A stretch of DNA of 64,000 nt, from NCBI RefSeq assembly GCF_009914755.1, contig NC_060932.1; one strand, given 5' to 3'. Below are positions 11,807 through 56,274 of the stretch, piece after piece; within the stretch, counting starts at the first letter, position 1; every line of letters begins with the position of its first letter. The notes under the pieces are model-generated. The model did no database searches, was not told the origin of the DNA, and saw only the letters and a program-made list of their open reading frames with translations. Source of the DNA: the human T2T-CHM13v2.0 reference genome, Homo sapiens. The translations under genes and the position numbers were made by a program.

Positions 11807-12004
11807 CTTGTGCTCCAGGCTGGAGTCTTTAAACATCAGTGAGAATGGCTTGATATGCTCTCTTCTCAATTTATCGCCACTCCGCAAGTCGATGGTATGT
11901 TCTATTCTCTTGTTAATTTCCTCAGGCCCAGACTGGACATGCAAAGCTTGTGCAAGATGGTTTGGAAGCAGATTTATTGAATTTCTTGTTAGGGCAGCCA
12001 GAGT
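11807..12004 (-). CDS. ADCY8: ADCY8 coding exon (probably exon 8), 66-aa C1b cassette [66 protein letters not shown]
   Basis: 198 nt, phase 0/0, translated by hand (absent from the ORF track); acceptor tttccccctAG, donor AAG|GTAGAG; matches recalled AC8 sequence. Confidence 0.95.
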
Positions 12005-20600: not shown

Positions 20601-20891
20601 CAAGTAGGGGAGAGAGAAACTGAAACATTGGTGGTTTGTTCATAGGGCCACAGGGTAGGTGTGAATTGAAATATCTCTTAGCACTGAATTAGCTGGGTTG
20701 AAATGTCATTGGCTGTAGTTGGTGAGATGACCACTATCCCATTGACTGAATGACCTTGGGTTGGCAACCTGGAGAATTTTAGCTCAGGAAATGAATAAAC
20801 AAACATATATCCAGACCTAAGTTACTCCATTTTCTTGTGAACATCAAAGATGTGGATTTTTTAGAGGTGTCAATACCATGGGGAGAAGAAG

Positions 20892-21128
20892 GTGTGTGTG
20901 TGTGTGTGTGTGTGCATGTTTATATGTGTGTGTGTGCATGTTTATGTGTGTGTTTGTGGGTGTGCAAGTTTATGTGTGTGTGCATGTTTATGTGTGTGTG
21001 TTTGTGGGTGTGCATGTTTGTGTGTGTGCATGTTTATGCGTGTGTGTGTTTGTGGGTGTGCATGTTTGTGTGTTTTGGGGTGTGCATGTTTATGTGTGTG
21101 TTTGCGGGTGTGCATGTTTGTGTGTGTG
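20892..21128. repeat. (TG)-rich compound repeat with recurring GTGTGCATGTTT units
   Basis: Directly visible. Confidence 0.95.
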
Positions 21129-24100
21129 GTTGTCGTTGTGTTTTCTTAATAGAAATTTTGAGAAAATTGAAATAGAATTATTTAAATGTTTAGCTTTGAA
21201 GGTTCAGAAGTAACTTTTAATTTAGGCAGATGAAAAACTTACACATCTTGGGTTGCTGATAAATTGCTCATGTTTGGTGTTTTAAATTTCTCAGTATGAG
21301 TTTTTTCAGACCACTCTTATACAATTTACTAATCACATGTAGTTATTGATGCTTTCCTTAATTTAATTCCAATGGAGCAACAAATTACTGACCTTCAAGA
21401 ATCCAGCATCTCTTACTTTTCACCAGTTGTGTCAGGGCAAAACTGGGAAAAGAAGAAACGGTCTATGTTAGAGCTACATTGCTACCTCTTTGGGGTTGTG
21501 CCTGCTACTTCCTTTTACCCTAACTTTCCCAACACACACATTTCTATAAGAATGGTGTAATTGGTTTAGCTTTTCTGGTTTTTTATTATCCCGTGTGTTT
21601 ATTTCCAGGCTTATCACTTATGAGTGGTCCTGTGTTTAAGTTTTCCCCAGACATGAAGTCCAGAGTGGGTGATACTTCATACAATGTATCCAAAGTCCTT
21701 ACTATCTCACAGTGTGACATGATTCTTTAGGGGACTAAAGGTAACATAAAAGTCACACAGTGGGAAGAGACACTGCCAAATCTAGTGGTGCATAACCTGA
21801 AATTCACAACAGTAGTTTGGGAATCCTTGAGATAGAAGAGGACCTTGCAAAAACTTCCATCCATACTGTATGCTTACTGAAGATAAGCCACTGTAAGTCT
21901 CTTTTGACACAAGGGGAAGTAAAAAGAAGTACATATATAAGTACCGTGGCTGTTCAGGCCAACAAAAATATCCGTTATCTTTTCTCTGGCTAGAATTCAG
22001 TCACCTTAGAATGGGAAGACCCATGTGTTTGTGTAGAGCAGGAAAACTGGTGGGTCAGGGCACATATAAAATTACTTGAAAAATGGGAATAAAAATTCAC
22101 TCACATCAAATGCAATTTTGCTTGGAAAGAAAAACCTTCCTCGATATGAACTGCGCTGTGTCAAACAATAAAAGTTATACTTGGTGGCAAAGAGATGAGA
22201 GCAATCCTGGTGTAGCTCAATGAAGAGATTTTACACTGAAGGATCTGAGCCCAGTCCTTGGCAAAGTGAACACCAAGAATGATAGAAAATAAATCCCACT
22301 TCTTTGTTTTCAAATTGAGGAAATAAGTCAGGGGAAAAGAATCCAGATTTTTGCTTTTACTCTTCCTACCTATCTTCTCATATTTAAAATATCATACATT
22401 TCCACCTTGACATATTTAAAGTGCTATACATTTATTGGGTCTTGTTTGTCAGCCCTCAGTTTTATGACTCCCCAAACAATGACTCAATATCTCATAAAAG
22501 AAGAGTCCAATTCGTTTGTGTAGAAAAGTTTTAGCAGGTTATCAGCAATGGGAGTAACCGTGGCTGCATGATGTATGCTTGACAACCTAAATGTGTATTT
22601 TTCATGTCTGTGGTTCTACATAAGCCTCAGTCCTATCTCTACCTTTATCTCTTCTTCCTTAGTCTACCCCAGGAACTTCAGAGAAAGGAAGGATGATGAG
22701 TCAAAGCAAATGGATCCAATTGCCTACTTAATCCATTCAATGTTCTCTGGAAGGCTTCAAATCCACTTGTCTTTTGAAACAGAGTGAAAAAGCAGACCCC
22801 ACTAATGATTCTCCCTGGCTGAACTCAGCAGCTATCCTCAGATTCAGAGCTCAGGACAGCCTGGGGAGTTTTATTGTCAGAAAAAGCCATGTTACTGGAA
22901 GAATGCAGCTTGACTTCAGGAAAATTTCCAAAGATTTCCATGTTCTTGACCCTAAGTCTGCAGATGTCTTATCTAATAAGCATCAAAACTTAATCTGATG
23001 TTAAAATGGTTAAAAAAATTACCTGTGGGGAAAAATATGCCTGTGATTCTCTGCATATTTATATTGAATATGGACAATTAGATGTCCTGTAACTTATCAC
23101 AGAAGCAGTTACCTCTGAAAACACACCTTTCTAAAGATCAAGATTCAATATTTCAGGTGTTTTTAGGGGGAGGAATTTCAGGTCAGAATTCCCTGTAGGG
23201 AAAGAGAAATCTGTGCTTTGGTCTTGAGCAAAGAAACTCAGGCTGAGATGGTGGACTTGCTTTTTCTCCCGTTCTAAGGTCTTGTTCCCTCATTCTTGGC
23301 TTAATTCCTGCTTGCCTGTAGATCTCAGCTTAAGGTATTTCCTGATTAACTCAGATCAATTTTCCCTCATCTACTACTCTACTACTCTGTCCTGCCATAA
23401 TTGTAACAATGTTCACAGTGAGCCTGCTGACCTCTTAGTAGCACCATCAAACTAAGCTCCGGAGTGCTTGCCCCACCTTCGTCTCTATCCCCAGATCCTA
23501 GAACTTTACTGGCAAATTGTAGTTTCTCAGTAAGCTGTTGATAAATGCATGGCTGAATGAATGAATGAACAAATAAGCATCTTGATAGGATTGCCTTTCT
23601 TAAGCTGAATGATAAAAGTAAGATGAGTTTGAATTTAAAAAATGCATTTTTTTGCACGCCTTCATATTCACAAAAAAGAGGCTTGCCCCTTAGTTTGAAT
23701 CCACCCTTTAGGGGCAGAAAGAAGAAGGAAAGAAATCAAATCCCAGGGAACAATATCACTCAATAAGAGAACATAATGACCATGGTGAAAACAGGACCTT
23801 GAAAGCAGGCAAAGTGTGATGATGTCTGTAATGATGTTTGGGTGTTTATCTACACAAAATCATAAGTTATGCTTAGAGAAAAGGGTAAATCTCATTCCCT
23901 AGTTAGGTAAGATTTTACCTCAAATACTTTTTAATTTTTTTTTCTTTAACTCCTGTTGCTGAATTTGGTATTCATGTTTTAAGACGGTTCACCAGGATAA
24001 GTGTAGCTGTTACCCTACAGTAAGATAACTGTAAACAGTGGATGTCCCCATGGCTTCCTGGTAAATTATTTATGGATGGTAGAATTCTGAAGTGTATGTG

Positions 24101-24899: not shown

Positions 24900-26380
24900 C
24901 ATGTACACACACATACACACCTCACACATACATACACATATACATACACACCACACACATACACACACACACCACACACATATACATACGTACCCCACAC
25001 ATACATACACATATACATACACACCACACACACACATATATACACACTACACACACACCCCACACACACATACACATATACATACACACCACACACACAT
25101 ATATACACACTACACACACACCACACATACATACACATATACACACATCACACACACATATATATATACACCACACACACACACCACACCACACATACAT
25201 ACACATATACATACACACCACACACACATACACATACACACCACACACATACATACACACCACACACACATACACATACACACCACACACATACATACAC
25301 ACCACACACACATACACATATACATACACACCACACACATATACACACAACAAACACACCACACATACACATATACATACACACCACACACACATATATA
25401 CACACTACACACACACACCACACCACACATACATATACATATACACACATATACATACACACCATACACACACATATATACACACTACACACACACACCA
25501 CACACACATACACATATACATACACATCACACATATATACACACTACACACACACACCACACCACACATACATACACATATACATACACACCACACACAT
25601 ATATATAAACACTACACACAGACACACCACACCACACATACATACACATATATATACACAGCACACACACATATATACACACTACACACAGACACACCAC
25701 ACCACACATACATACACATATACATACCACACACATATACACACTACACACATACACCACATCACACATACCTACACGTATACACACATCACACACATAC
25801 ACACCATGCACACATATCATACATATATACACATACCACACATACATACACCACACACACACCACATTCCTACCACACATAGACATATACTTGTACACAA
25901 CACACACAGCCACACATGGAAAGCAAATATGCTTCATTGCCTGGAATACAGATAAACATCCACGAGGTCACCAACACTGACAGGAGTAGAGAGCTTTACA
26001 CATGTTTATACACACCCCACACCTATACACATCACACACACATATACACACCACTCACATACACACACCTCACATCATATGCACATACACACATCACACA
26101 CATACAACACATGCAACATATACATACATACCACACATACATCCATATATACACACATCTCACACACACCATACCACACATATATACATATATCACACCA
26201 CATACACAGCAAACATACATAATACACATATAAACACCACACACATACACCACATACATACCGTACACACATATACATGCACACTACACATATACACACC
26301 ATGTACAAATACACATAACACACACCACACCACACCACACACATATTCACACACACTACACACACAACACACATAAATAC
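24900..26380. repeat. Approximately 1.5-kb (CA/TA)-rich VNTR-like low-complexity tract (UG-rich in the ADCY8 pre-mRNA), interrupted by a unique island at approximately 25916-25997
   Basis: Recurring blocks such as CACATATATACACACTACACACACACCAC. Confidence 0.95.
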
Positions 26381-26388
26381 TCACTCAC

Positions 26389-26409
26389 CTTCTGAGACTG
26401 ACAGATGAC
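26389..26409 (-). other. Candidate 21-nt cryptic/micro exon (GTCATCTGTCAGTCTCAGAAG = VICQSQK)
   Basis: Acceptor catcttctaccttgttttcAG, donor AAG|GTGAGT; in frame in a phase-0 intron; no expression evidence available. Confidence 0.55.
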
Positions 26410-26464
26410 CTGAAAACAAGGTAGAAGATGACACCCAGCATATATCTTCAGGCCACAAAGACGG

Positions 26465-26685
26465 AAGCAGTGTGAACTGATGGAAAGCATGGGGCTTTTT
26501 GAGTCAGATATATGGGGCTCTAATTCCATCTCTGTTATTTACCAGCTATGTGTCCTTCAGGGAATTAATCAATTCTCTCTGAATCCCAATTTTCCCATTT
26601 GTGAAGTAGGCACATCACACTTACCCTGTAAGGTTGGTGTGAGAATTAGGTGGAAAAACATGGGCACACCACTCCCGACATGCTA
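26465..26685 (+). mobile_element. MIR
   Basis: gagtcagat..ggctctaattccatctctg..agctatgtgtccttc..ctctgaatcccaattttcccatttgtgaa. Confidence 0.7.
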
Positions 26686-27224
26686 CCTGTCCCAAAGCTC
26701 TCTACTCCTGTCAGTGTTGGTGACCTTGTGGATGTTTATCTATATTCCAGGCAATGAAGTGTGTTTGCTCTCCATTTGTTACATGGAGATAGAAATTCCA
26801 TCTGTGTTTATAATCCTCATGGGAAACACATTAATTTCAAGATAACAAAAATGCCTCAAATCAGTCTATTGCATAGAAATGACTAAAACATACAGTGGAG
26901 GTACCAGTTGTGTACTTTTCTCCATATGACTCTTTCAAAAGGCCTAGCGGAGTAACAGAAACATGCCTGGATTCTCAGGCTGTAATAAATGTGAAAGGGA
27001 TGGATGGGATGAAGATGATTCCACAACATACGGAAACAAATTCCAGGCTCTGAAAAGGGGCCTTGCTTCTCAAAGAGTAGCCTCAGTTCTCTTGGCATAT
27101 CACTTGTCATAAAAATCCAGTTAAAATGATTAATATCCTACACACAATACATTTTTATAGCTACATAAAAACCTTTGGTATCTTCTTGAAAATCTGAAGT
27201 CTAAGACGGATCTTTTTTCTGCTA

Positions 27225-32143: not shown

Positions 32144-32414
32144 ATTCTGTTTCCCCACGATATTATCAAAGGGCAGTTCAGGGCTCCAGGATCCTTCAGT
32201 GAATGTGGCCCCACTGTTTCTCCGGTCTGAGGAGCTCACTGACTCCTTGACGATATCTTCAGGCAAGGACAGCAGACTGTCCTCAGGCTGCTTAATTAAG
32301 TAAGTTTCGATATTATGCTTCCTCAGGAATTCATTCCTCTCTTTACCATGGCCCTCTTCCACGTTATAGTCACCGTTGAGACAGTCCAGCGTGGCTTTGG
32401 AAATGTGAATCCTC
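32144..32414 (-). CDS. ADCY8: ADCY8 coding exon (probably exon 7): [23 protein letters not shown]...[14 protein letters not shown]
   Basis: 271 nt; acceptor cacAG|GAGG, donor AAT|GTAAGT; 1 nt plus 90 codons; joins the previous exon in frame to give GGIPG-RIHIS. Confidence 0.97.
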
Positions 32415-33967
32415 CTGTGTGTAGAAGGCATAGGTCATTACACGCTCCTGATGTTGCCTGCAAAGGCTATATTTTTTTGACCTGTACAAAACCAACACCA
32501 GGTTACACAAGGGTATTATTAGGACATGTCCTCAGGGACAATACTTGTCTTCCTAAAAAGTAGAAAGAATAAAAGAAAATAGAAGCATAAATTCATGAGC
32601 ACAGTATCACGGACATCGTCCCAAGAGACACTGCTGCCTCTGATAAAATACAGCCCTTCTGAGCCACACCTAAGCACATCTTTTGGCTTTTCTTATGATT
32701 GTCAGCCTGATCCCAGCAAACTTTACAAAACAGTGATTTTTTTTTCAGTCGTGTTGATTATATTGGAAAAACAAGTGCTGCAAATGTTTCTGAACCCCAG
32801 TGGCAATCATTATCCAAATCACCATGCAAAAACAGTTCTTTCTTCGTCTTGGAACCTGTCCTATCATTTCAATCTTCATGTATTTGTAACTTGTTTCTCC
32901 AACTTGTCTATATTCTTCTCAAGGGTGATTCTGATAAGTCCATAGGGCTGCACTGAGGGTCCTTTGGGAAAACCACTGTAGGGTACAATTTCCCCTATAA
33001 CATGTATATTATAAGGAGCAAAGAACAAAGCTGTGGACATGTGCAGGCTGGCAGCTGGCTGGGCTCACTCACAAGTGAAGTGACTCATGGCTGCACAATT
33101 GTCAGCCACTGTGGCTCATGACTCAGGCTTCTTTTTTAGCAAAATAACATATGACATCAGGGCCTTGAGGATCAAACTTGATTCATGGAAATTTCACATG
33201 GTAAATTCTTCTGGGGAAGAGTTTTTCTGTCCTCGTAACTGTCTAACTCAATCATACTACTTATTGCGTTATAGTGTGGTCTGGGTAGACTAGCAAGGTA
33301 AGGTGGTTACAAACATGGACTTCATTGCTAGATCTCCTAGATTCAAACCGTAGCTCTGCCACTTGCCAGCTGAGAGATCTTGGGCAAATTACTTAGCCTT
33401 TCTATCAGTCCATTTTCTTACCCATAATATGGGAAACATAATAACACCTATCTCTGACTATTATTGTGATTATTCTACGAGTTGATTTGTGTAAGGTAGT
33501 CAAAACAGTGCATGGTACAACATATACACTATAAAAGCAAATATGTAAGTTATTAAGAGTATTCTAAAAAATGCCATTGTCATCATATTACTGTTGTGTA
33601 TTCCATGCCTTCTCAAGGCTTGCAGAAGACTATTGTCAGGCCTTCTGAATAAGGCCTCCAAGCTTTCATTCTCTGGCTCTGTCACTTCAAAGCTCATTTT
33701 CTGACACTCCTCTAATATAGCTCTCCTACGCTCTCTCCAGCTATTCAAGTAATTGGCAATTCTCCAGATTCAACGTACTATTTGGTGCTTACTAACAATT
33801 TCCTACTGTCCAATTCTGCTCAAAAGTCATCTTCCTAAGTTTACTTTAGTGTTCATTTGAATGAAAGAATGCTTAATATTTTGATTGGCTTTTGGAATGC
33901 TAAGAACAATATATCCAAGTAAACAGAAAAGTTTTTAAAAAAAATTTAGAGTGGCTTTTAAAAATGC

Positions 33968-34262
33968 ACTGTAGTGGCTCATGCTGAGGAAGCCGAGACT
34001 GGTGAATTGCTGGAGCTCAGGAGTTTGAGACCAGCCTGGGCAACATGACAAAACACCATCTCTACAAAAAAATACAAAAGTTAGCTGGGCGTGGTGGTGC
34101 ATGCCTGTAGTCCCAGCTACTTGAGAGGCTGAGGTGGGAAGATCGCTTGAGCCCAGACAGTTGAAGCTATAGTGAGCCGAGATCATGCCACTGCACTTCA
34201 TTCTGGAGGACAAAGTGAGACCCTGTCTTAGAAAAAATAAATAAATTCATTAATTAAATAAA
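33968..34262 (+). mobile_element. AluJ with deleted/degenerate 5' part
   Basis: J-type diagnostics (gggaagatcgcttgagccc; cagcctgggcaacat); (TAAA)n tail. Confidence 0.88.
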
Positions 34263-35507
34263 ATGCAGTTTACTTTTAGTATTAGCTCTGCTACTCCCTC
34301 TCATCCTTCTAACCCATTCTGCTAAATCCCTCCTTACAGAAAGAATAGTTCATTGCAAAGAACATGTGAAAAACCAGAAACTACAAACAAATCATTTCTG
34401 ATACTTCATGTTCTCCACATCTTCCACATAAATATCTTGATTGATTTCAAGTGCAAGATGTTAAAAATAAATGTGTGAAAGATGTTTTCACTCTCTTGAG
34501 AAATGTGCTGAATAAATACAAAATATTCCCAAGATGCATTTTGTTAATACACATGAACTCAATAATATTGACCTGGGAGAATAACAGATCGTTTGACCTT
34601 CCATGAAATGGAAGTCCCCATCCGCTTTCTCAGATGAATCTGAGTTAAGACTGGAAGCTTACCTTTTCTCCTAGACAAAATGAACCTGGTAGGAGGGTTT
34701 TCTAAAGTACCATGGTTGATTTTCTTTTAAGATAATTAAGTTACATATCAACCCCTTTTAGCATTTCTCTGGATTCTATTTTTATTATTCTGCTGTCAGT
34801 ATGCAAGGGGACAAATACTTCCATGTATTAAATCAATATTATGTTTTCACTAGTGAAAGAGATCCTTGCCTTCACTGATTCTTCTGCTGAAGTGCTAATC
34901 AATATGCACTTAAATGTTTTGGTAGAAACTGGGTTTTAGATGTTTCTTTTCATCCTTGTTACTAACTTGAGCTTTGGGGTAAGACATTTGCAGATGAGAT
35001 TCTGAAGATTGCATTTCTTTCTAAGGAAATGTGTCAGTTTTCAGGCATTTCTTTCTAAGGAAATGAGTCAAGTAAACTTGGCATTTTCTGATAAATTTTA
35101 ATGCTAGGATATAATAAAAGTAGTCATGATACTAAATTAAGACCTAACAATTGTGTAACTCTTGTTTTGCATAAATGTTATCTAGTAGCCAAAGGTGTTA
35201 CTGTGTGCCCCATGGATTATCTCATATAATTTCCGTTCTTTCAACAACCTTAGGTATTAGACATTTCTTTGTCTCCTTTTGCAGATGCTGAAACTGGCCC
35301 AGAAGTAACAAGTACATATTTGGCCCCAAATCATATTAGTGGTTAGTGGCAGTGCTGGATTGAGACAAGAACTTTTACTTTCAGCGTCTCTCTACCACCC
35401 TGGAACTGTATTATATGGTAACTACTACCAGCACAACCACAATAAATATTTACTGAGTACAGGACAAAGGACTTTATATGCATTATTTCATTTAACACAA
35501 GTTCAAA

Positions 35508-35682
35508 AATGGTGATCTTCATGGTGTGGTACTAAGGCCAGCAGTTCCTACCAGGAACTGGTAGAAAGCATCATCTTGAGTTCCATGCCAGACATACTGA
35601 ACCAGAAACTCGGCAGTGGGGCCCAGCAAGCTATGGTTTAATAAACTCTCGGGTAATTCCAAGGCTGAGGTTTGAGAACCGT
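35508..35682. mobile_element. MER5A-like hAT MITE
   Basis: ccagacatactgaaccagaaactc..gtggggcccagcaa..gtttgagaacc. Confidence 0.7.
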
Positions 35683-36084
35683 TCTTCTAGAAACCCAAGG
35701 CTCAGTGGTGTTAAAGAAGAAGACAATAAAAAAGTGGAAAAATATAAAACAATATCAAACCATGGTGAGTCTGGGGTCCCGTTTTGACATTCCTGCATTT
35801 TGCACATTGACAACATGCCATGGCTAAGCAGAGATGGATACTGAATAGAAGACTAGACTACGTGCTTTATAAGCACTATCATATTTGAAACTACATTTTT
35901 AAGGCGGATAATGTTTTCAGTCCAAAATTACAGTGAAGAAACTGGGAAGGGCATGAAGTACTTGCCACAATCTTCCAGACTTCATAACTGGTAAGTAGTA
36001 AACCCACGGTTCAGACTCATGACTCATGATATGAAAAATAAGGGTGTGAAAGATGATTTAAACTCAGTCACTTTTCTGTTTCTT

Positions 36085-36484
36085 TTTACAAATTATTTTA
36101 TTCGTTTCTTTCCTTTTTCAACTTTTATTTTAGAATCAGGTGGTATATGTGCAGCTTTGTTACAAAGCATATTGTATGATGCTGAGGTTCGGGGTAAGAA
36201 GGAACCCTCACACAGGTAGTGAACATACTACCCAACAGGTAGTTTCTCGTCCCTTGTCCCACTCTCTCCCTTCTCCCTCTAGCAGGCCCCAGTGTCTATT
36301 CTCGTCTTTATGTCCATATGTACTCAATGTTTAGCTCCCACTTAGAAGTGAGAACATGTGGTGTTGGGTTTTCTGTTTCTGCATTATTTAAATTAAGATA
36401 ATTTCTTTCAGCTGCATCCATGTTGCTGCAAAGGACATGATGTCATTCCTTTTTATGGCTTTGTAGTATTGCATGGTGATGTGC
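36085..36484 (-). mobile_element. Old L1 (L1PB or late L1PA) 3' end
   Basis: tttagctcccacttagaagtgagaacatg..gctgcatccatgttgctgcaaaggacatga; flanked by a 31-bp direct repeat. Confidence 0.88.
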
Positions 36485-37354
36485 TGATTTAAACTTGGTC
36501 ACTCTTCTGTTTCTTAATGTTATTGAGAACAATAGCTAAACTGGCTTCCAGATATCAAAGCAGTATCTTACAAATCCCCAAAGCATCCTCTAAGGTTTGC
36601 AAAAGGAATCTATTGAGTATATGGGCAATTCCCCATTTGGTGATGCTTTTAAGATACAGTCCTGGAAACACAGATGAATTGGCTAACTTGTTTGTCTAAA
36701 TTCAGCAGGTAGTTACTTGTGGGAAAATCCTAAAGAATGGAAAGATTTAAGAAACCCAGCAGTGACACATCAGACCTTCCTCAATTCTAAACCTGTCTGG
36801 CAAACAGCCATGACACACCACATAGAGTGAAGGATCCCCATAAGAATAGTAACTGACCTGGGGTGTCCCTGCACAGTGTACAAAAAAAAGCGCTTCATAC
36901 CCATTGCCTGAGATAATCTTCAGAGGAGACCTGTGAGGTGGATTATGCCATTATAGCAGATGAGAGAACAAACTCTCATGGAGGAGGAAAATAAGTTCAC
37001 AAGGTAGCAAATCATAAGTAGTATTATCTCTCTTCCTGCAGTGAAGAAAGTTGGACTCAGAAGTTAAGCACTGGCCTGAGATCACACAGGTAGAGTGATG
37101 CAAGCCAAGTTCACACTAAAATCACACGCCAGGTGCTGTGCATGCTTTACATAACTTGCTGAAGATAATAGAGTTTAGCAAGGGGCAGAGTGGGAATCCT
37201 AGTTACTCTGATTCCACCTCTTGTTGTCTGTTTCCCCCATGATAACATATTACTTGATATTAAACATAGTTTGCAAGGAGTGATGGCACATACCAGAGAA
37301 ATCTGTGACTCCAAGGGCAGTTCTAGGGGGTAGGAAAAGGAATATGTGGAAGTG

Positions 37355-37386
<32 letters not shown>

Positions 37387-37426
37387 ATCTCCATCCATCC
37401 ATCCATCCATCCATCCATCCATCCAT
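37355..37426. repeat. (CT)n plus (CCAT)n microsatellite
   Basis: Directly visible. Confidence 0.95.
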
Positions 37427-38070
37427 CATCTTTAAGAAAGAGAGGCTGCAGAAAATCACACTGGCTCACATATATCTGAGATCTTATTAGGTCCAATCTG
37501 TGTAAACAGAATCTTGATACAACTTTTCAAGACTTACATTAGTTGCAGTGGCCTTTGCAGACCACTAGCACCTTTGGGGATCCTATGTCAACCAACCTTG
37601 ACAGCCAAATTTGAAATGTTGAGTTTCTAAGGAAGAGCCTGATTTCCTCACTGAGTCCTAGATCATGCATGGAAAGTCAGTAGGTCTTAATCCTGGCTGC
37701 CCATTACAATTCACTGAAGAACTTAAAATAGATTCTGCACAGATTCTGCTTTAAATAAACTGGCATGGGGTCTGGACACTAGTATTTTTTAAATGTTCCT
37801 TTGGAGATTCGAATGTGCAGCCAAGTCTAAGGACCAATGCTGTGCAGGGCAGAGACCCGAACACCTCAGTGTTATTCCACATCCTTGTTGCCTCTGATGC
37901 ATTTTACTAGATTTTGGAAGCTAATAGTTGTATGATGTTTCAGTGTCTGGTCTCCTTCCAAATAATTGCTTCCTAGATCTAACCCTGAATTTCTGTACAC
38001 AGGAAACCCACTGTCACAAAATAAGCCAATGACAACCGTTAAGCATGAAAAGGGCTTTGCTTTATCTTAC

Positions 38071-45342: not shown

Positions 45343-46118
45343 CCATGCTTACCCTGACATGAAAGTTGTGATTTCACAAAGTGCTTCCCAATTCATGTTC
45401 TCATTTTGATAGCCACAGTGACTCTGAAAGGTAGATGCCTATCAATATTATAAATTTTGATTTTATAGATGAGCAAACTGAGGCTCTGAGAGGATTAAGA
45501 TGCGGTTATTACCTCTCCTGTGCTAGGCCTTTTACCTTAATAACCTCATTTCATCCTCATTTCCACCACAGGCTACATATACAGCTCATCCATTTATTCT
45601 TTCAACAAGTGTCTGTTGAAGAACTCTAAAGATATAAGCAGTGACCCAAACAGACAAATCAAGTTCTGCATTCATGGAGCTTACATCAATGTGGTTTATT
45701 CCCATTTTACAACCAAGGAAGCTGGAGCCCAGAGAGGTTAAGTCACACGGGTGTTAGGTAATGCCAGACTCCAAGCTGAATGGTGTTTGGATACTTTGCT
45801 GCTGCTTGCACTCCCTTCCAGTGGAAAGGTAATGGGGAAGACCTAACTGCACTCACATTCAAAAGCAGGGTGGATCTAGGGAGAGAAAAGTGAGAGCAAT
45901 GGTGTTCTTGAAGATGAAAGCGTTGCTGACCCTTCCTGCCCTGGTGCCCCGGAATCTTAGAAGAACAATAGAGACCAAGTCAGGACAGCAGCTGTGCGCC
46001 AAGTCAGCATTTCCTTGTTGATCCCGCTCAGGGGAGTTCTGAAGTTCTGAATTCTGGATTTTTTAGGACAATTTATTTCCTGAAATGGCCCTAACTCAGG
46101 GGTGAGGGAGGCACAGGG

Positions 46119-47474: not shown

Positions 47475-48355
47475 TTAAACAGAGCTCTGTGGGACTGGTC
47501 AGTATCGCATGTCCAAACTGGGAGAGTCATTTAACCCGAAACTTCATCTACCCTTTTGCTGTTTTTTAACATGGCCCAGACACTTAACAGTTACAGGCTC
47601 ATGTGGAGAGTGTGGGGAGTCCTGGCCAAAGATTTTTGTGTGCATTATTTAACTCACACTCGCACACACACACACACACACCACACACATGATGTATGTT
47701 GTGATGGGCTATGGCCAGGCCAGCTGTAGGCACATAGATACAGTGAGAGCAAGAACATGGCTCTGTGTCAACAGGAATTTCATGTAAAGGGGTTGATCTC
47801 TGAGTGCCAATGTGGCCTCTCTCCTAGCCTGCAGAAGAGTGGGTGCAGAGCTTGAGGGTTGGGTGGGTAAATGTTTAACAACTGTCTCTTTGGGAAGAAA
47901 AGGTCCTGATTTGTGATGTCTGTCAACTTCTGTGGTGTCACTATTTTTGTCATGGATGAGTTCAAGCTTCCAACTTGAGGTCAACTGGCTTGTAAAATTC
48001 CTGCAAGTTTAACAGTTGGCTTTTGCAAACAGACAGGGGCTGACCTAGGCATATCACTTTTTAAGGCTTGTGACTGGGTAGTTTTCTCCTCCTAGGGGCA
48101 GCTGAGACCACTGCAATTCACTTCCCTCTGTATGGAACAGAGAGGGACACCACAGCCCAGCCCACTTCCTGTGCCCTTACTCCTCTGTGCTTTGTGTCTT
48201 GCTTGTTTCTGTTGTGGCAATGAGCTGAAGTCACTTCAACTATCCTCCAGTATTCAAACCTGGATTAGTCCTTATGGTGTGGCCTTCCACATTATTATCC
48301 CCATTTCCTCAGGAAGAAACTGAGATTCAGCATGTTTAAAATTCTTGGAAGCAGG

Positions 48356-53614: not shown

Positions 53615-54490
53615 CTATCATTATTTTATGGGCATAGAATAGAAGCCATGGTAAAACAATAGGTTTCTGTAACTCAACTGCATCAAATTTTCCAGGACCC
53701 AAACTCAGCCTCCCTTGCAATATTCTATTAAAAATATTTCCATAGTGATAACATGCATGCTACCTATTTGAATTTTCCTATTTGAAATTGGGATCTTATT
53801 ATCCTCATTTTGCAGACGAGGCCATGGAGGCTATAAGTTAAGTCACCCACCCATCATTACAGACCTAATTACAGGAAGAGGCAGGAAACAGGGTAGGTCT
53901 GTTGCTGCCTGTCAAGGGCCCCCCAACCCATCCCACTCACTCAGCATATTTTCTATGTCACCTTACAGTACAATAGGCACTCTTTCAGGGAAGCTTTGTC
54001 ACAATCACATCCAGCAATGAATTATAATTTTAATAAAATGGAATCCTGACTGGAATTCTTGGAGTAGTCAATTGAAAATTAGTTTAATGTCATGATAAAT
54101 GTTTGGTTTAATTAAAATTTGTATGTCACATATTGTCTGTTGGGTGACTCTTGGAACTCAGCTTTGATGTGTTATCATCCCATCCTTTCTATTTCACAGC
54201 TGCTGCTCTATTTCAGATCCTTACTTCTCTCCCCTGGATTAGTATGAGAATATCCCCAAACCAGTTTCCTTCCCTTTGGCCTCTGCTCCTCCATTCCAGT
54301 GTCAAGGGGAGAGAGAGTTATCCCTCTCCACAGTCATCTTCCTGACATCCAGATCTGACCATGTCACTTCCCTACTTTAAGAGTCAGTGACTTTTCATTG
54401 CCTGAGGGATAAAGCCCCAGCGTATCGTACCCTAACCCTATTGTTTTAATTTAGAATTGTGGTAATCACCAAGGTCAGCTTCAATGCTTA

Positions 54491-54610
54491 ACACACACAC
54501 ATGCACATACATACAAACACATATAAACACACACATATATACCACACAGGTACATACATTTACACTCATACATACATATGTACACACATACACTAATGCA
54601 CACATACATG
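54491..54610. repeat. (CA/TA)-rich low-complexity tract
   Basis: Directly visible. Confidence 0.85.
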
Positions 54611-56274
54611 TGGCTTTTGCCATTCTTAACAGCTAGCATGACTCATTGTTCAAGCCTTTGTTTCCAGGAAAAAAAAAAAAACCTTTGGTTCTTGGTTTAA
54701 AAGGCTACTGTGCAAACAGCTCAGTAAAAGGCAAATGACAGGGAAAAAGGTTTCCCTCATACTCGTACTTTTGATTGACTTGACTCTTGCCCACTTTGCA
54801 TTTAAAAAATATTTTTTATTTTATTTTTTGTACATTGACAGGTAAAATTGTATATATTTGTTGCATACCACACGAAGATTTGAAACATATATACATTGTG
54901 GAATCTAGCTAATTAACACATGTATTACCTCACAGTTATCATTTTTATGGTGAGAACACATGACATCCAGTCTCTTACCATTTTTCAAGAATAAAATATA
55001 TTGTCAACTATAGTCACCAAGATGTATAATAGGTCTTTTGAATTTATTTCTCCTATCTAATTGAAATTTTGTATCTTTTGATTAACATCTCCTCAACCAC
55101 ACTCCAACCACCCCTAGACCCTGATAATCACCACCTCTACTTCTATGGGTTAGCTTCTATAGCTTCCACATAGGAGTGAGATCACGAGGTATTTATCTAC
55201 CTGTGCTTAGCTTATATTTTTTAACATAATGTCCACGTTCATCTATATTATTGAAAATGCCAGGATTTCCTTCTTTATGGTGTAATAGTATTCCATTACA
55301 TATATATATATATATATATACACACACCACATTTTTCTTTATCCATTTCATCCATTGATGGACATTCAGGTTGATTGCATATCTTGGCTATGGTAAATAA
55401 TGCTGCAATAAACATGGGAATGCAGATATTTCTTCAACATACAGATTTCATTTCCTTTGCATAACTACTCAGTAGTGGAATTATTAGACATATGGTAGTT
55501 CTATTTTTTAAGTTTCTGAAGAACTGCCACTGTTTTAAATAATGACTGTATTAATTTACATTTCCACCGGCAGTGTTCAAAGTTTCCTTTCCACCACCTC
55601 CTGGTCAATACTTGTTATCTCTTGACTTTTTGATAGCAGCTATTCTAATAGGTGTGAAGTGATATCTCATTGTGGTTTTTATTTGCATTTCCCTGATGAT
55701 TAGTGATGTTTAACTTTTTAAAAAATATACCTGTTGGCTTGTATACCTTCTTTTGAGAAATGTATATTCAGGTCCTTTGCCCATTTTAAAATCAGGTGAT
55801 TGATTTTCTTGCTATTGAGTTGTTGGAATTTCTTATATATTTTGGATTTTAACCTTTCATCAGAAGTATAGTTTACAAGTATTTTCTCCCATTCTGTAGT
55901 TTAGGTTCACTATCTTAATCGTTTCTTTCGTTATGCAGAAAGTTTTTAGTTTTTCAGATAGTTTGCTGTTAATATATAGAAATGCTACTTATTTTTGTAT
56001 GTGGATTTTATATCCTGCAACTTTACTAAATTTGTTTAATTCTAACCATTTTTTTTTTGGTGGAGTCTTTAGGGTTTTCTCTATATAAAATCATGTCATC
56101 TGCAAACAGAAACAATTTAACTTGTTCCTTTCCAATTTAGATGCCTTTTAATTCTTTCTCTTGTTTGACCGCTCTAGCTGGGACCTCCAGTACCTATATT
56201 GAATAGAAGTGGCAAGAGTGGACATCCCTGTCTTTTTTCAGATCTTAGAGGAAAAGATTGCAACTTTTTATTGT

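What the first reader, a model, noticed from the sequence alone, without database searches (positions are those of the whole stretch)
24900..26445. Candidate TDP-43-repressed in-frame 21-nt cryptic microexon in ADCY8, abutting a 1.5-kb UG tract
Seen: on the transcribed strand, catcttctaccttgttttcAG|GTCATCTGTCAGTCTCAGAAG|GTGAGTgagtattt is followed within about 15 nt by roughly 1.5 kb of UG-rich repeat. The intron is phase 0, so inclusion inserts VICQSQK between ...IVGKQN and TLAALTR in C1b with no stop. The donor is a perfect consensus, better than the real exon 8 donor. A second GTGAGT 4 nt downstream would give a 25-nt frameshifting form. Established: TDP-43 binds UG repeats next to cryptic exons and represses them, and these exons appear in ALS/FTD. 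Inference: this exon is silenced by TDP-43 (or CELF) and would yield a neo-peptide-bearing AC8 when TDP-43 is lost. It may already appear in published cryptic-exon catalogues; I cannot check this.
Basis: partly seen in the sequence, partly recalled or inferred. Interest (0 to 1): 0.85.

Follow-up and report, generated by a model that had tools for sequence, protein, structure and literature searches.

The report
Unused mini-exon beside ADCY8 UG repeat
A 21-base exon look-alike with textbook splice signals sits at the edge of a long UG-rich repeat inside a human ADCY8 intron, which is the layout of exons that appear when the ALS protein TDP-43 is lost, but no catalogue I could open shows it being used.

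Summary
The sequence observation holds. On the ADCY8 strand, window 26409..26389 is a 21-nt in-frame open segment (VICQSQK). It has a CAG|G acceptor and the only 9/9 consensus donor (AAG|GTGAGT) on that strand in 64 kb. An 82% G+T tract of about 1.47 kb starts 15 nt downstream, in two blocks split by a 139-nt unique spacer.

One 9/9 donor per 64 kb is what chance gives (1.69 expected), and the donor looks like a decayed repeat unit.

The only ADCY8 TDP-43 cryptic event I found in print (Sinha et al. 2025, CE012) is a cryptic start-site exon in the upstream intron, at about window 37294-37384. The candidate is missing from that 421-event table and from the supplements of five other TDP-43 papers I could search. 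ADCY8 read depth in those neurons looks low, and 21-nt exons are hard to map, so this absence is weak evidence.

The 21-nt exon has no UGC enrichment and no strict branch-point motif. The closest precedent is the 30-nt in-frame, SRRM4-dependent G3BP1 exon 2a.

My odds:
- about 0.6 that it is a silent pseudoexon;
- about 0.2 that the donor is used in some TDP-43-dependent event;
- about 0.07 for the exact 21-nt in-frame exon.

At best it is a new member of a known kind, of low to moderate interest.

The parts
26389..26409 (-). 21-nt in-frame pseudoexon GTCATCTGTCAGTCTCAGAAG (VICQSQK)
   Evidence: It is not an exon of any RefSeq transcript in the hub's table.
26410..26432 (-). 3' splice-site motif: pyrimidine tract and CAG, with 13/16 pyrimidines at -20..-5. 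The only branch-point-like motif is a relaxed UCAU with its A at 26429 (-20).
   Evidence: No strict yUnAy motif lies in -50..-15, and the nearest UGC is at 26440.
26380..26391 (-). 5' splice-site motif AAG|GTGAGT (9/9), overlapped 4 nt downstream by a second GTGAGT (6/9) that would give a 25-nt frameshifting form
   Evidence: It is the only 9/9 donor on the minus strand of the window.
26007..26373 (-). Proximal UG-rich block A (367 nt, 82% G+T, longest pure (UG) run 5)
25868..26006 (-). 139-nt non-repeat spacer with two acceptor-like sites (first exon base 25976 and 25940)
24905..25867 (-). Distal UG-rich block B (963 nt, 85% G+T, main periods 2, 4 and about 23, longest pure (UG) run 6)
26410..26625 (-). 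Zone of alternative upstream acceptors that could pair with the same donor: first exon base 26476 (88 nt, frameshift), 26445 (57 nt, A at -3), 26625 (237 nt, contains stops)

Best explanation
This is a real, consensus-quality pseudoexon created at the decayed upstream edge of a long, imperfect (TG)n-type microsatellite in the 20-kb ADCY8 intron between the 271-nt and 198-nt exons.

Shown: the motifs, the frame, the composition of the tract, and the absence of the exon from RefSeq models and from the catalogues I searched.

Inferred mechanism: the tract grew by replication slippage. Its edge mutated to GTGAGTGAGT, which happens to read as a perfect U1 site, and a fair acceptor lies 21 nt upstream.

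The segment stays out of ADCY8 mRNA for two redundant reasons. First, 21 nt is too short for ordinary exon definition, and the segment lacks the usual aids for microexons: there is no UGC cluster near the 3' splice site and no strict branch-point consensus. Second, the UG tract starting 15 nt past the donor is very probably coated by TDP-43 or other GU-binding proteins in neurons, which would hinder U1.

Because the first block remains when TDP-43 is lost, I expect little or no inclusion of the 21-nt exon even then.
For: The exon, frame and sites are as described.

One 9/9 donor per 64 kb is what chance gives: 1 observed against 1.69 +/- 1.30 expected. Fifteen pseudoexon pairs on this strand pass donor >=8/9 with acceptor >=12/16. 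Only one of them is a constitutive exon and one is an annotated alternative exon. Another is a 19-nt pair at 45875..45857 with no UG tract beside it.

There is no UGC enrichment: 3 in the 150 nt upstream and 1 in the 150 nt downstream, against a background of 2.08 per 150 nt, and the nearest is 31 nt from the exon. No yUnAy motif lies in -50..-15.

The candidate is not among the 421 cryptic events found in TDP-43-depleted i3Neurons with NMD inhibition, where another ADCY8 event was measured. ADCY8 is absent from the splicing lists. In the passages returned, the 13 cassette rows I could see span 48-191 nt, and none comes near 21 nt.
Against: The donor is the best on the strand, and the acceptor is better than those of all three constitutive exons in the window.

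UG/GU density in the first 50 nt after the donor is 0.62 per nt, against 0.13 for the window. Published analyses tie exactly this combination, a strong site with long dense UG at the donor side, to TDP-43-repressed exons and to the most sensitive ones.

A 30-nt in-frame cryptic exon (G3BP1 exon 2a) shows that very short cryptic exons can be included and detected in i3Neuron data.

The validated ADCY8 event CE012 has a weaker donor (7/9) and far poorer UG context (0.16 per nt). Weak-looking sites can therefore respond, and sequence features predict poorly in either direction.

The negative catalogue evidence has low power because ADCY8 counts are low.
Confidence: 0.6

Rival explanations
1. One reading: the 21-nt exon is held silent by TDP-43 bound to the adjacent UG tract. 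When nuclear TDP-43 is lost it is spliced in, in frame, and gives AC8 with VICQSQK inserted into the conserved C1b domain.
For: Sites, frame and UG adjacency are confirmed. The junction lies inside Pfam PF06327. The architecture matches the donor-side UG enrichment of known cryptic exons and the features of early-responsive ones. [quoted passage not shown]
Against: It is not in any catalogue I could search and not in print. It would be shorter than any cryptic cassette I saw listed. The G3BP1 precedent depends on TGC/SRRM4 motifs near the splice sites, and these are at background level here. There is no strict branch-point motif. The UG nearest the donor is interrupted, with pure runs of at most 5.
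Confidence: 0.07
2. The strong donor at 26388 is TDP-43-repressed, but on de-repression it pairs with another acceptor (first exon base 26476, 26445 or 26625, giving 88, 57 or 237 nt) or the 25-nt form is used. The products are frameshifted or stop-containing and are removed by NMD, lowering AC8 rather than producing a neo-peptide.
For: Alternative acceptors exist: 11/16 with CAG at 26476 and 12/16 with CAG at 26625. Lengths of 57-237 nt overlap the 48-191 nt range of the cassettes seen. Most TDP-43 cryptic exons are out of frame, and only 8.9% of the events are in frame. Donor-side UG is the commonest layout.
Against: The Sinha et al. design with NMD inhibition was built to reveal exactly such events, and it lists only CE012 for ADCY8. 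ADCY8 goes up, not down, on TDP-43 knockdown in i3Neurons (log2FC +0.89). The acceptor at 26409 lies between these acceptors and the donor and is the strongest of them.
Confidence: 0.12
3. The segment is a genuine but unannotated, low-level neuronal microexon, or is controlled by other GU-binding proteins such as CELF, independently of TDP-43.
For: The length is a multiple of three, the frame is open and the flanking sites are strong, which is typical of microexons (general knowledge). UG/UGU-rich tracts also bind CELF proteins (general knowledge).
Against: It is absent from the five RefSeq ADCY8 transcripts in the hub table. No paper pairs ADCY8 with 'microexon' (0 papers). No UGC motif lies close to the 3' splice site. 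Conservation could not be tested.
Confidence: 0.05
4. The tract matters but the exon does not. The 1.5-kb UG-rich region is a multivalent TDP-43 binding platform in a long neuronal intron, or a Z-DNA-prone polymorphic microsatellite, that affects ADCY8 pre-mRNA processing or transcription generally. The flanking pseudoexon is incidental.
For: It is the longest and densest GUGUG/UGUGU zone on the transcribed strand of the window. It holds many GUGUGU/UGUGUG and UGUAUG/GUAUGU hexamers (238 and 110 across the tract). These are the classes that links to long, condensation-dependent TDP-43 binding regions. ADCY8 mRNA changes on TDP-43 knockdown.
Against: There are no CLIP data here. The ADCY8 increase is as well explained by the published cryptic start site CE012.
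Confidence: 0.1

Closest known systems
G3BP1 exon 2a (bioRxiv 10.1101/2025.09.17.676845; I read passages and section 10)
   Same: [quoted passage not shown] It inserts a few residues into a conserved domain. The authors propose a wider set of microexons regulated jointly by TDP-43 and SRRM4.
   Different: Its inclusion was shown experimentally and needs SRRM4, with several TGC motifs near the splice sites. The ADCY8 candidate is 9 nt shorter, has TGC at background density, has a far longer UG tract, and has no expression evidence.
ADCY8 CE012, a TDP-43-dependent cryptic 'start site' exon (Sinha et al., bioRxiv 2025, PMC12262666; I read passages, sections 4 part 1 and 20, and searched 2 supplement files)
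   Same: It is in the same gene and the same window, and depends on TDP-43 in i3Neurons. PSI is 30% on knockdown and up to 85.7% with NMD inhibition.
   Different: It lies in the upstream intron. hg38 chr8:130908924-130909014 maps to about window 37294-37384, where a CTG|GTATGT donor sits within 2 nt of the predicted place. It is an alternative first exon, not a cassette. Its donor is 7/9 and its UG context is weak, at 0.16 UG/GU per nt.
Classical TDP-43 cassette cryptic exons (for example UNC13A, STMN2 and the in-frame HDGFL2 exon, as named)
   Same: They are unannotated intronic segments with AG/GT and nearby [UG]n, most often at the donor side. In-frame ones give neo-peptides used as biomarkers.
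   Different: The 13 cassettes I saw listed are 48-191 nt, and their use is documented by junction reads. Here nothing beyond sequence supports use.
Intronic pseudoexons (consensus-like splice-site pairs that are never spliced; concept recalled from the splicing literature, no paper read here)
   Same: It is a pair of good splice motifs at exon-like spacing inside a long intron, with no annotated use. Fifteen such pairs on this strand pass moderately strict thresholds, and only 2 of them are annotated exons.
   Different: This one has the top-scoring donor of the window and abuts a 1.5-kb UG tract.

Membership tests
TDP-43-repressed cryptic exon (operational criteria of Sinha et al. 2025) | Unannotated intronic segment bounded by AG and GT | tested here: met
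   It is not among the RefSeq exons in the hub table.
TDP-43-repressed cryptic exon (operational criteria of Sinha et al. 2025) | [UG]n repeat within 600 bp of a cryptic splice site | tested here: met
   The UG-rich tract starts 15 nt after the donor. UG/GU density is 0.62 per nt in the first 50 nt against 0.13 for the window. The pure runs are short, at most 6.
TDP-43-repressed cryptic exon (operational criteria of Sinha et al. 2025) | Junction absent in controls and PSI raised by at least 20% on TDP-43 depletion | tested here: inconclusive
   No read data are available here. The candidate is not listed in the 421-event table or in the supplements searched (12 of 14 files; 12 of 16 files). 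ADCY8 depth is low in those data.
TDP-43-repressed cryptic exon (operational criteria of Sinha et al. 2025) | Direct TDP-43 binding (CLIP) next to the exon | not testable with these tools
   No CLIP data are held. No paper found links ADCY8 to TDP-43 CLIP.
SRRM4-type neuronal microexon (3-27 nt) | Length 3-27 nt that preserves the frame | tested here: met
   It is 21 nt with an open frame. The size range is as stated.
SRRM4-type neuronal microexon (3-27 nt) | UGC motifs close to the 3' splice site | tested here: not met
   The nearest UGC is 31 nt upstream of the exon. There are 3 per 150 nt upstream against a background of 2.08. The rule on motif position is recalled and partly supported.
SRRM4-type neuronal microexon (3-27 nt) | Inclusion in neurons and conservation across vertebrates | not testable with these tools
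   No vertebrate genomes or expression data are held. The exon is absent from the RefSeq models, and 0 papers pair ADCY8 with 'microexon'.
Pseudoexon | Consensus-like acceptor and donor at exon-like spacing | tested here: met
   Donor 9/9, acceptor 13/16 pyrimidines with CAG|G.
Pseudoexon | Not spliced into mRNA | tested here: inconclusive
   Only annotation and published lists were checked, as above. Raw reads were not seen.

The most novel reading that the evidence does not exclude
The 21-nt segment is the shortest TDP-43-repressed cryptic cassette yet seen. It would be an in-frame microexon kept silent by a 1.5-kb multivalent UG platform, missed by standard pipelines because of its size and low ADCY8 coverage. 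In TDP-43-depleted neurons it would insert VICQSQK into the conserved C1b domain of adenylyl cyclase 8, giving the tryptic neo-peptide QNVICQSQK. That would support the proposed hidden class of cryptic microexons controlled by TDP-43.
Probability: 0.07. Interest if true: 0.55.

Novelty: new member of a known kind. Interest (0 to 1): 0.25.

Why it matters
If the exon were used, it would add one of the rare in-frame TDP-43 cryptic exons. Only 8.9% of the events are in frame, and the review seen puts the figure near 3%.

It would sit in a Ca2+/calmodulin-stimulated cyclase important for synaptic plasticity, and it would come with a defined neo-peptide. It would also suggest that cryptic microexons are under-counted by current pipelines.

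As it stands, it is a cheap and well-specified candidate to look for in existing RNA-seq data, not a finding. The practical result of this check is that the known ADCY8 TDP-43 event is a different one, 11 kb away in the neighbouring intron.

Tried and rejected
- RNA folding of 26470..26330 gave no structure beyond shuffles (z = -0.02; 97 of 200 shuffles fold at least as well). Sequestration of the sites by structure is not supported.
- The bacterial promoter and terminator scan does not apply to a human intron and is ignored.
- A transposon origin for the exon-bearing flank is unlikely. 26380-26700 has only itself and one 77%-identity 83-nt match in the T2T genome. The tool warns that its counts are lower bounds.
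- I tried a genome-wide base rate for 'AGGTRAGT within 20 nt of (TG)6'. It gave 74 forward matches, 363 reverse matches inflated by overlapping hits, and 181 and 68 for the reversed-pattern controls. The pattern is no more common than its control. The candidate itself does not fit it, having no pure (TG)6 near the donor. Without annotation the count could not be turned into a prior.
- A higher-order repeat unit was not supported. Autocorrelation shows periods 2, 4 and about 23 only.
- MaxEntScan, SpliceAI and Pangolin scores could not be computed because no tables or models are held. I used matches to the consensus instead.
- Conservation in other mammals could not be tested because no vertebrate genomes are held.
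- The AC8 splice-variant literature search gave only the C1b boundaries, residues 582-703. The 66-residue AC8-C deletion is recalled, not verified.

Full report
**What is in the sequence**

Read on the minus strand, which is the ADCY8 sense strand, window 26432..26379 is tcatcttctaccttgttttcAG|GTCATCTGTCAGTCTCAGAAG|GTGAGTgagt. The segment 26409..26389 is 21 nt.

The upstream 271-nt exon (32414..32144) ends ...ATC GTG GGG AAA CAG AAT|gtaagt. The downstream 198-nt exon (12004..11807) begins ACT CTG GCT GCC CTA ACA AGA. Translation confirms IVGKQN|TLAALTR, a phase-0 intron, and the insert VICQSQK without a stop.

A second GTGAGT 4 nt further on would give a 25-nt form. That form shifts the frame and reaches a stop inside the 198-nt exon.

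Pfam places the exon-exon junction inside PF06327, 'Adenylate cyclase, conserved domain'. The last 21 residues of the 271-nt exon match profile positions 1-21, with E = 0.0031, which is below the curated cutoff. The 198-nt exon matches positions 23-89 with E = 3.6e-20. This agrees with a C1b location. A paper passage gives C1b of AC8 as residues 582-703. I did not verify the exon numbers 7 and 8.

**The repeat**

Tandem Repeats Finder and my own counts show two UG-rich blocks separated by a 139-nt ordinary spacer (26006-25868):

| Part | Window coordinates | Length | Longest pure (UG) run |
|---|---|---|---|
| Block A (nearest the donor) | 26373-26007 | 367 nt | 5 |
| Spacer | 26006-25868 | 139 nt | not a repeat block |
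| Block B | 25867-24905 | 963 nt | 6 |

- Over 26388..24900 the RNA would be 45.5% U, 36.9% G, 15.3% A and 2.4% C.
- The tract is imperfect, and its main periods are 2, 4 and about 23.
- It is by far the densest GUGUG/UGUGU zone on the transcribed strand of the window.
- In the first 50 nt after the donor, UG/GU dinucleotides occur at 0.62 per nt, against 0.13 for the whole strand.

**Is it more than chance?**

I scored donors against MAG|GTRAGT.

- The candidate is the only 9/9 match among 3,492 GT dinucleotides on the minus strand, and 21 of the 3,492 score at least 8/9.
- First-order Markov simulations of the strand expect 1.69 +/- 1.30 sites at 9/9 and 25.3 +/- 5.5 at 8/9 or better. One perfect donor in 64 kb is therefore expected.
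- The acceptor (13 of 16 pyrimidines at -20..-5, CAG|G) is better than those of the three constitutive exons here, which score 11, 12 and 12. Even so, 63 sites on the strand are as good, 0.98 per kb.
- With donor >=8/9 and acceptor >=12/16 there are 15 pseudoexon pairs from 11 distinct donors. One is the constitutive 271-nt exon and one is the annotated alternative exon 21442..21393.
- The other two constitutive exons fail these thresholds. A 19-nt pair at 45875..45857 passes them with no UG tract beside it.

The splice-site pair alone is ordinary. The notable point is its position at the tract's edge. That position is partly self-explaining, because GTGAGTGAGT reads as a mutated repeat unit.

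**Weak points of the 21-nt exon**

- No strict yUnAy branch-point motif lies 15-50 nt upstream. There is only a relaxed UCAU with its A at -20.
- UGC motifs are at background: 3 in the 150 nt upstream, with the nearest 31 nt from the exon, and 1 in the 150 nt downstream, against 2.08 per 150 nt for the strand. These motifs mark SRRM4-dependent microexons and were invoked for the G3BP1 precedent.
- RNA folding shows nothing (z = -0.02).
- The same donor could instead pair with acceptors at 26476 (88 nt), 26445 (57 nt, A at -3) or 26625 (237 nt, with stops).
- Acceptor-like sites in the spacer (25976, 25940) could pair with 7/9 donors in block B to give 136- or 169-nt segments.

**What is in print**

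Four searches bear on this:
- ADCY8 with 'cryptic exon' and TDP-43: 2 papers hold the terms and 1 is listed.
- ADCY8 with TDP-43: 8 papers, 7 listed.
- ADCY8 with 'microexon': 0 papers.
- ADCY8 with 'cryptic': 27 papers, 20 listed.

They yield one relevant work: Sinha et al., bioRxiv 2025 (PMC12262666). I read its passages, section 4 part 1 and section 20, and searched 2 supplement files.

Its text says an ADCY8 cryptic exon is seen in about 30% of transcripts after TDP-43 knockdown and close to 85% with NMD inhibition. Its table has a single ADCY8 row:
- event CE012, type 'start site';
- hg38 chr8:130908924-130909014, within the intron chr8:130904043-130909707.

That intron is 5,665 nt, and the window intron 32415..38070 is 5,656 nt. 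CE012 therefore maps to about window 37294-37384, in the intron upstream of the one holding the candidate. A CTG|GTATGT donor lies within 2 nt of the predicted place. It is not the candidate.

Other supplement sets searched for ADCY8:

| Paper | Files searched | Result |
|---|---|---|
| Brown et al. 2022 (PMC8891020) | 8 | ADCY8 in three gene-level tables, none a splicing list; one calls it upregulated (baseMean 194, log2FC +0.89, adjusted p 7e-9) |
| Ma et al. 2022 (PMC8891019) | 12 of 14 | none |
| KCNQ2 paper (PMC12672377) | 12 of 16 | listed only as 'DE, Brown et al' |
| Sporadic-ALS iPSC-neuron paper (PMC12318032) | 6 | none |
| Sinha et al., Nat Commun 2025 (PMC12297563) | 1 | none |

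In addition:
- A 2026 review's tissue tables name ADCY1 and ADCY7 but not ADCY8. I saw passages only, and only the first 300,000 of 403,460 characters are held.
- The main text of Brown et al., bioRxiv 2025.11.23.689722, has no 'ADCY'. I did not ask for its supplements, which cover thousands of events.
The candidate could be listed in those files.

**How much the absence weighs**

The Sinha screen required a PSI at least 20% above control, [UG]n within 600 bp, and a splice site in the STAR junction output. ADCY8 is weakly expressed in i3Neurons (baseMean 194). The CE012 PSI values of 85.7 and 66.7 look like ratios of small counts (my inference). Unannotated 21-nt exons need a read split twice and are often lost, which is general knowledge and was not tested here. 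The absence lowers the odds only moderately.

- In the Sinha set, UG repeats are enriched at the donor side, and nearly 60% of the cryptic exons include the donor in the proximal repeat.
- Brown et al. 2025 report that the cryptic exons most sensitive to TDP-43 loss have stronger splice sites and longer, denser UG regions.
- A 30-nt in-frame cryptic exon in G3BP1, with TDP-43 sites just downstream of its 5' splice site, is included in TDP-43-depleted i3Neurons and in patient tissue. It depends on SRRM4, and its authors propose a network of microexons regulated jointly by TDP-43 and SRRM4.
- The validated CE012 in this same gene has a weaker donor (7/9) and almost no UG nearby (0.16 per nt). 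The candidate looks better on paper than a real event. This also shows that such features predict poorly.

**Verdict**

The interpretation can be neither confirmed nor excluded with these tools.

I judge it most likely (0.6) that this is a silent pseudoexon at the decayed edge of a microsatellite. It would be kept out of mRNA both by its size and lack of microexon aids and by proteins on the UG tract, with little inclusion even without TDP-43.

I give about 0.2 to some TDP-43-dependent use of the donor at 26388. Of that, about 0.07 is for the exact 21-nt in-frame exon and 0.12 for longer or frameshifting forms.

If real, it would be a new member of a known kind and the shortest such exon I saw described. 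The decisive test is cheap: count two junctions in existing data.

Noticed in passing
window 37294-37384 (minus strand): The published TDP-43-dependent ADCY8 cryptic 'start site' exon CE012 (hg38 chr8:130908924-130909014) maps here. It sits just downstream of (GGAT)n and (GA)n repeats and has a CTG|GTATGT donor (7/9). In T2T the nearest UG is weak, a (TG)3 at 37088 about 200 nt past the donor, although the authors' criteria require [UG]n within 600 bp.
   Followed up: partly
window 21393-21442 and 20885-21135 (minus strand): The 50-nt exon of other RefSeq ADCY8 transcripts carries an in-frame TAA when it is placed between the 271-nt and 198-nt exons, so it behaves as a poison exon. A CA-rich repeat of about 250 nt lies roughly 260-510 nt downstream of its donor (AAG|GTCAGT, 8/9). 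CA repeats are hnRNP L-type sites, which is recalled knowledge.
   Followed up: partly
window 26618-26636 (minus strand): ccaaccttaCAG|G|GTAAGT is an acceptor followed one base later by an 8/9 donor. It is close to, but not exactly, a recursive-splice-site motif, and lies 237 nt upstream of the candidate donor.
   Followed up: no
window 25772-25976 (minus strand): Acceptor-like sites in the unique spacer between the two UG blocks (first exon base 25976 and 25940) could pair with 7/9 donors inside block B (last exon base 25805 or 25772). The resulting 136- or 169-nt segments are flanked by UG on both sides, and both shift the frame.
   Followed up: partly
window 45857-45875 (minus strand): This is another microexon-sized pseudoexon: 19 nt, acceptor 15/16 pyrimidines, donor AAT|GTGAGT 8/9. 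No UG tract lies beside it. It shows that such pairs arise without any special context.
   Followed up: no
window 47501-47800 and 54401-54700 (minus strand): Two smaller UG-rich spots lie on the ADCY8 sense strand in an upstream intron. One includes the longest pure run in the window, (UG)9 at 47680-47663.
   Followed up: no
window 11807-12004 (minus strand): The 198-nt exon (66 codons) has the weakest donor of the three constitutive exons here (AAG|GTAGAG, 6/9). From memory, an AC8 splice variant lacks 66 residues of C1b, which would correspond to skipping this exon. I could not verify this in the papers I opened.
   Followed up: partly
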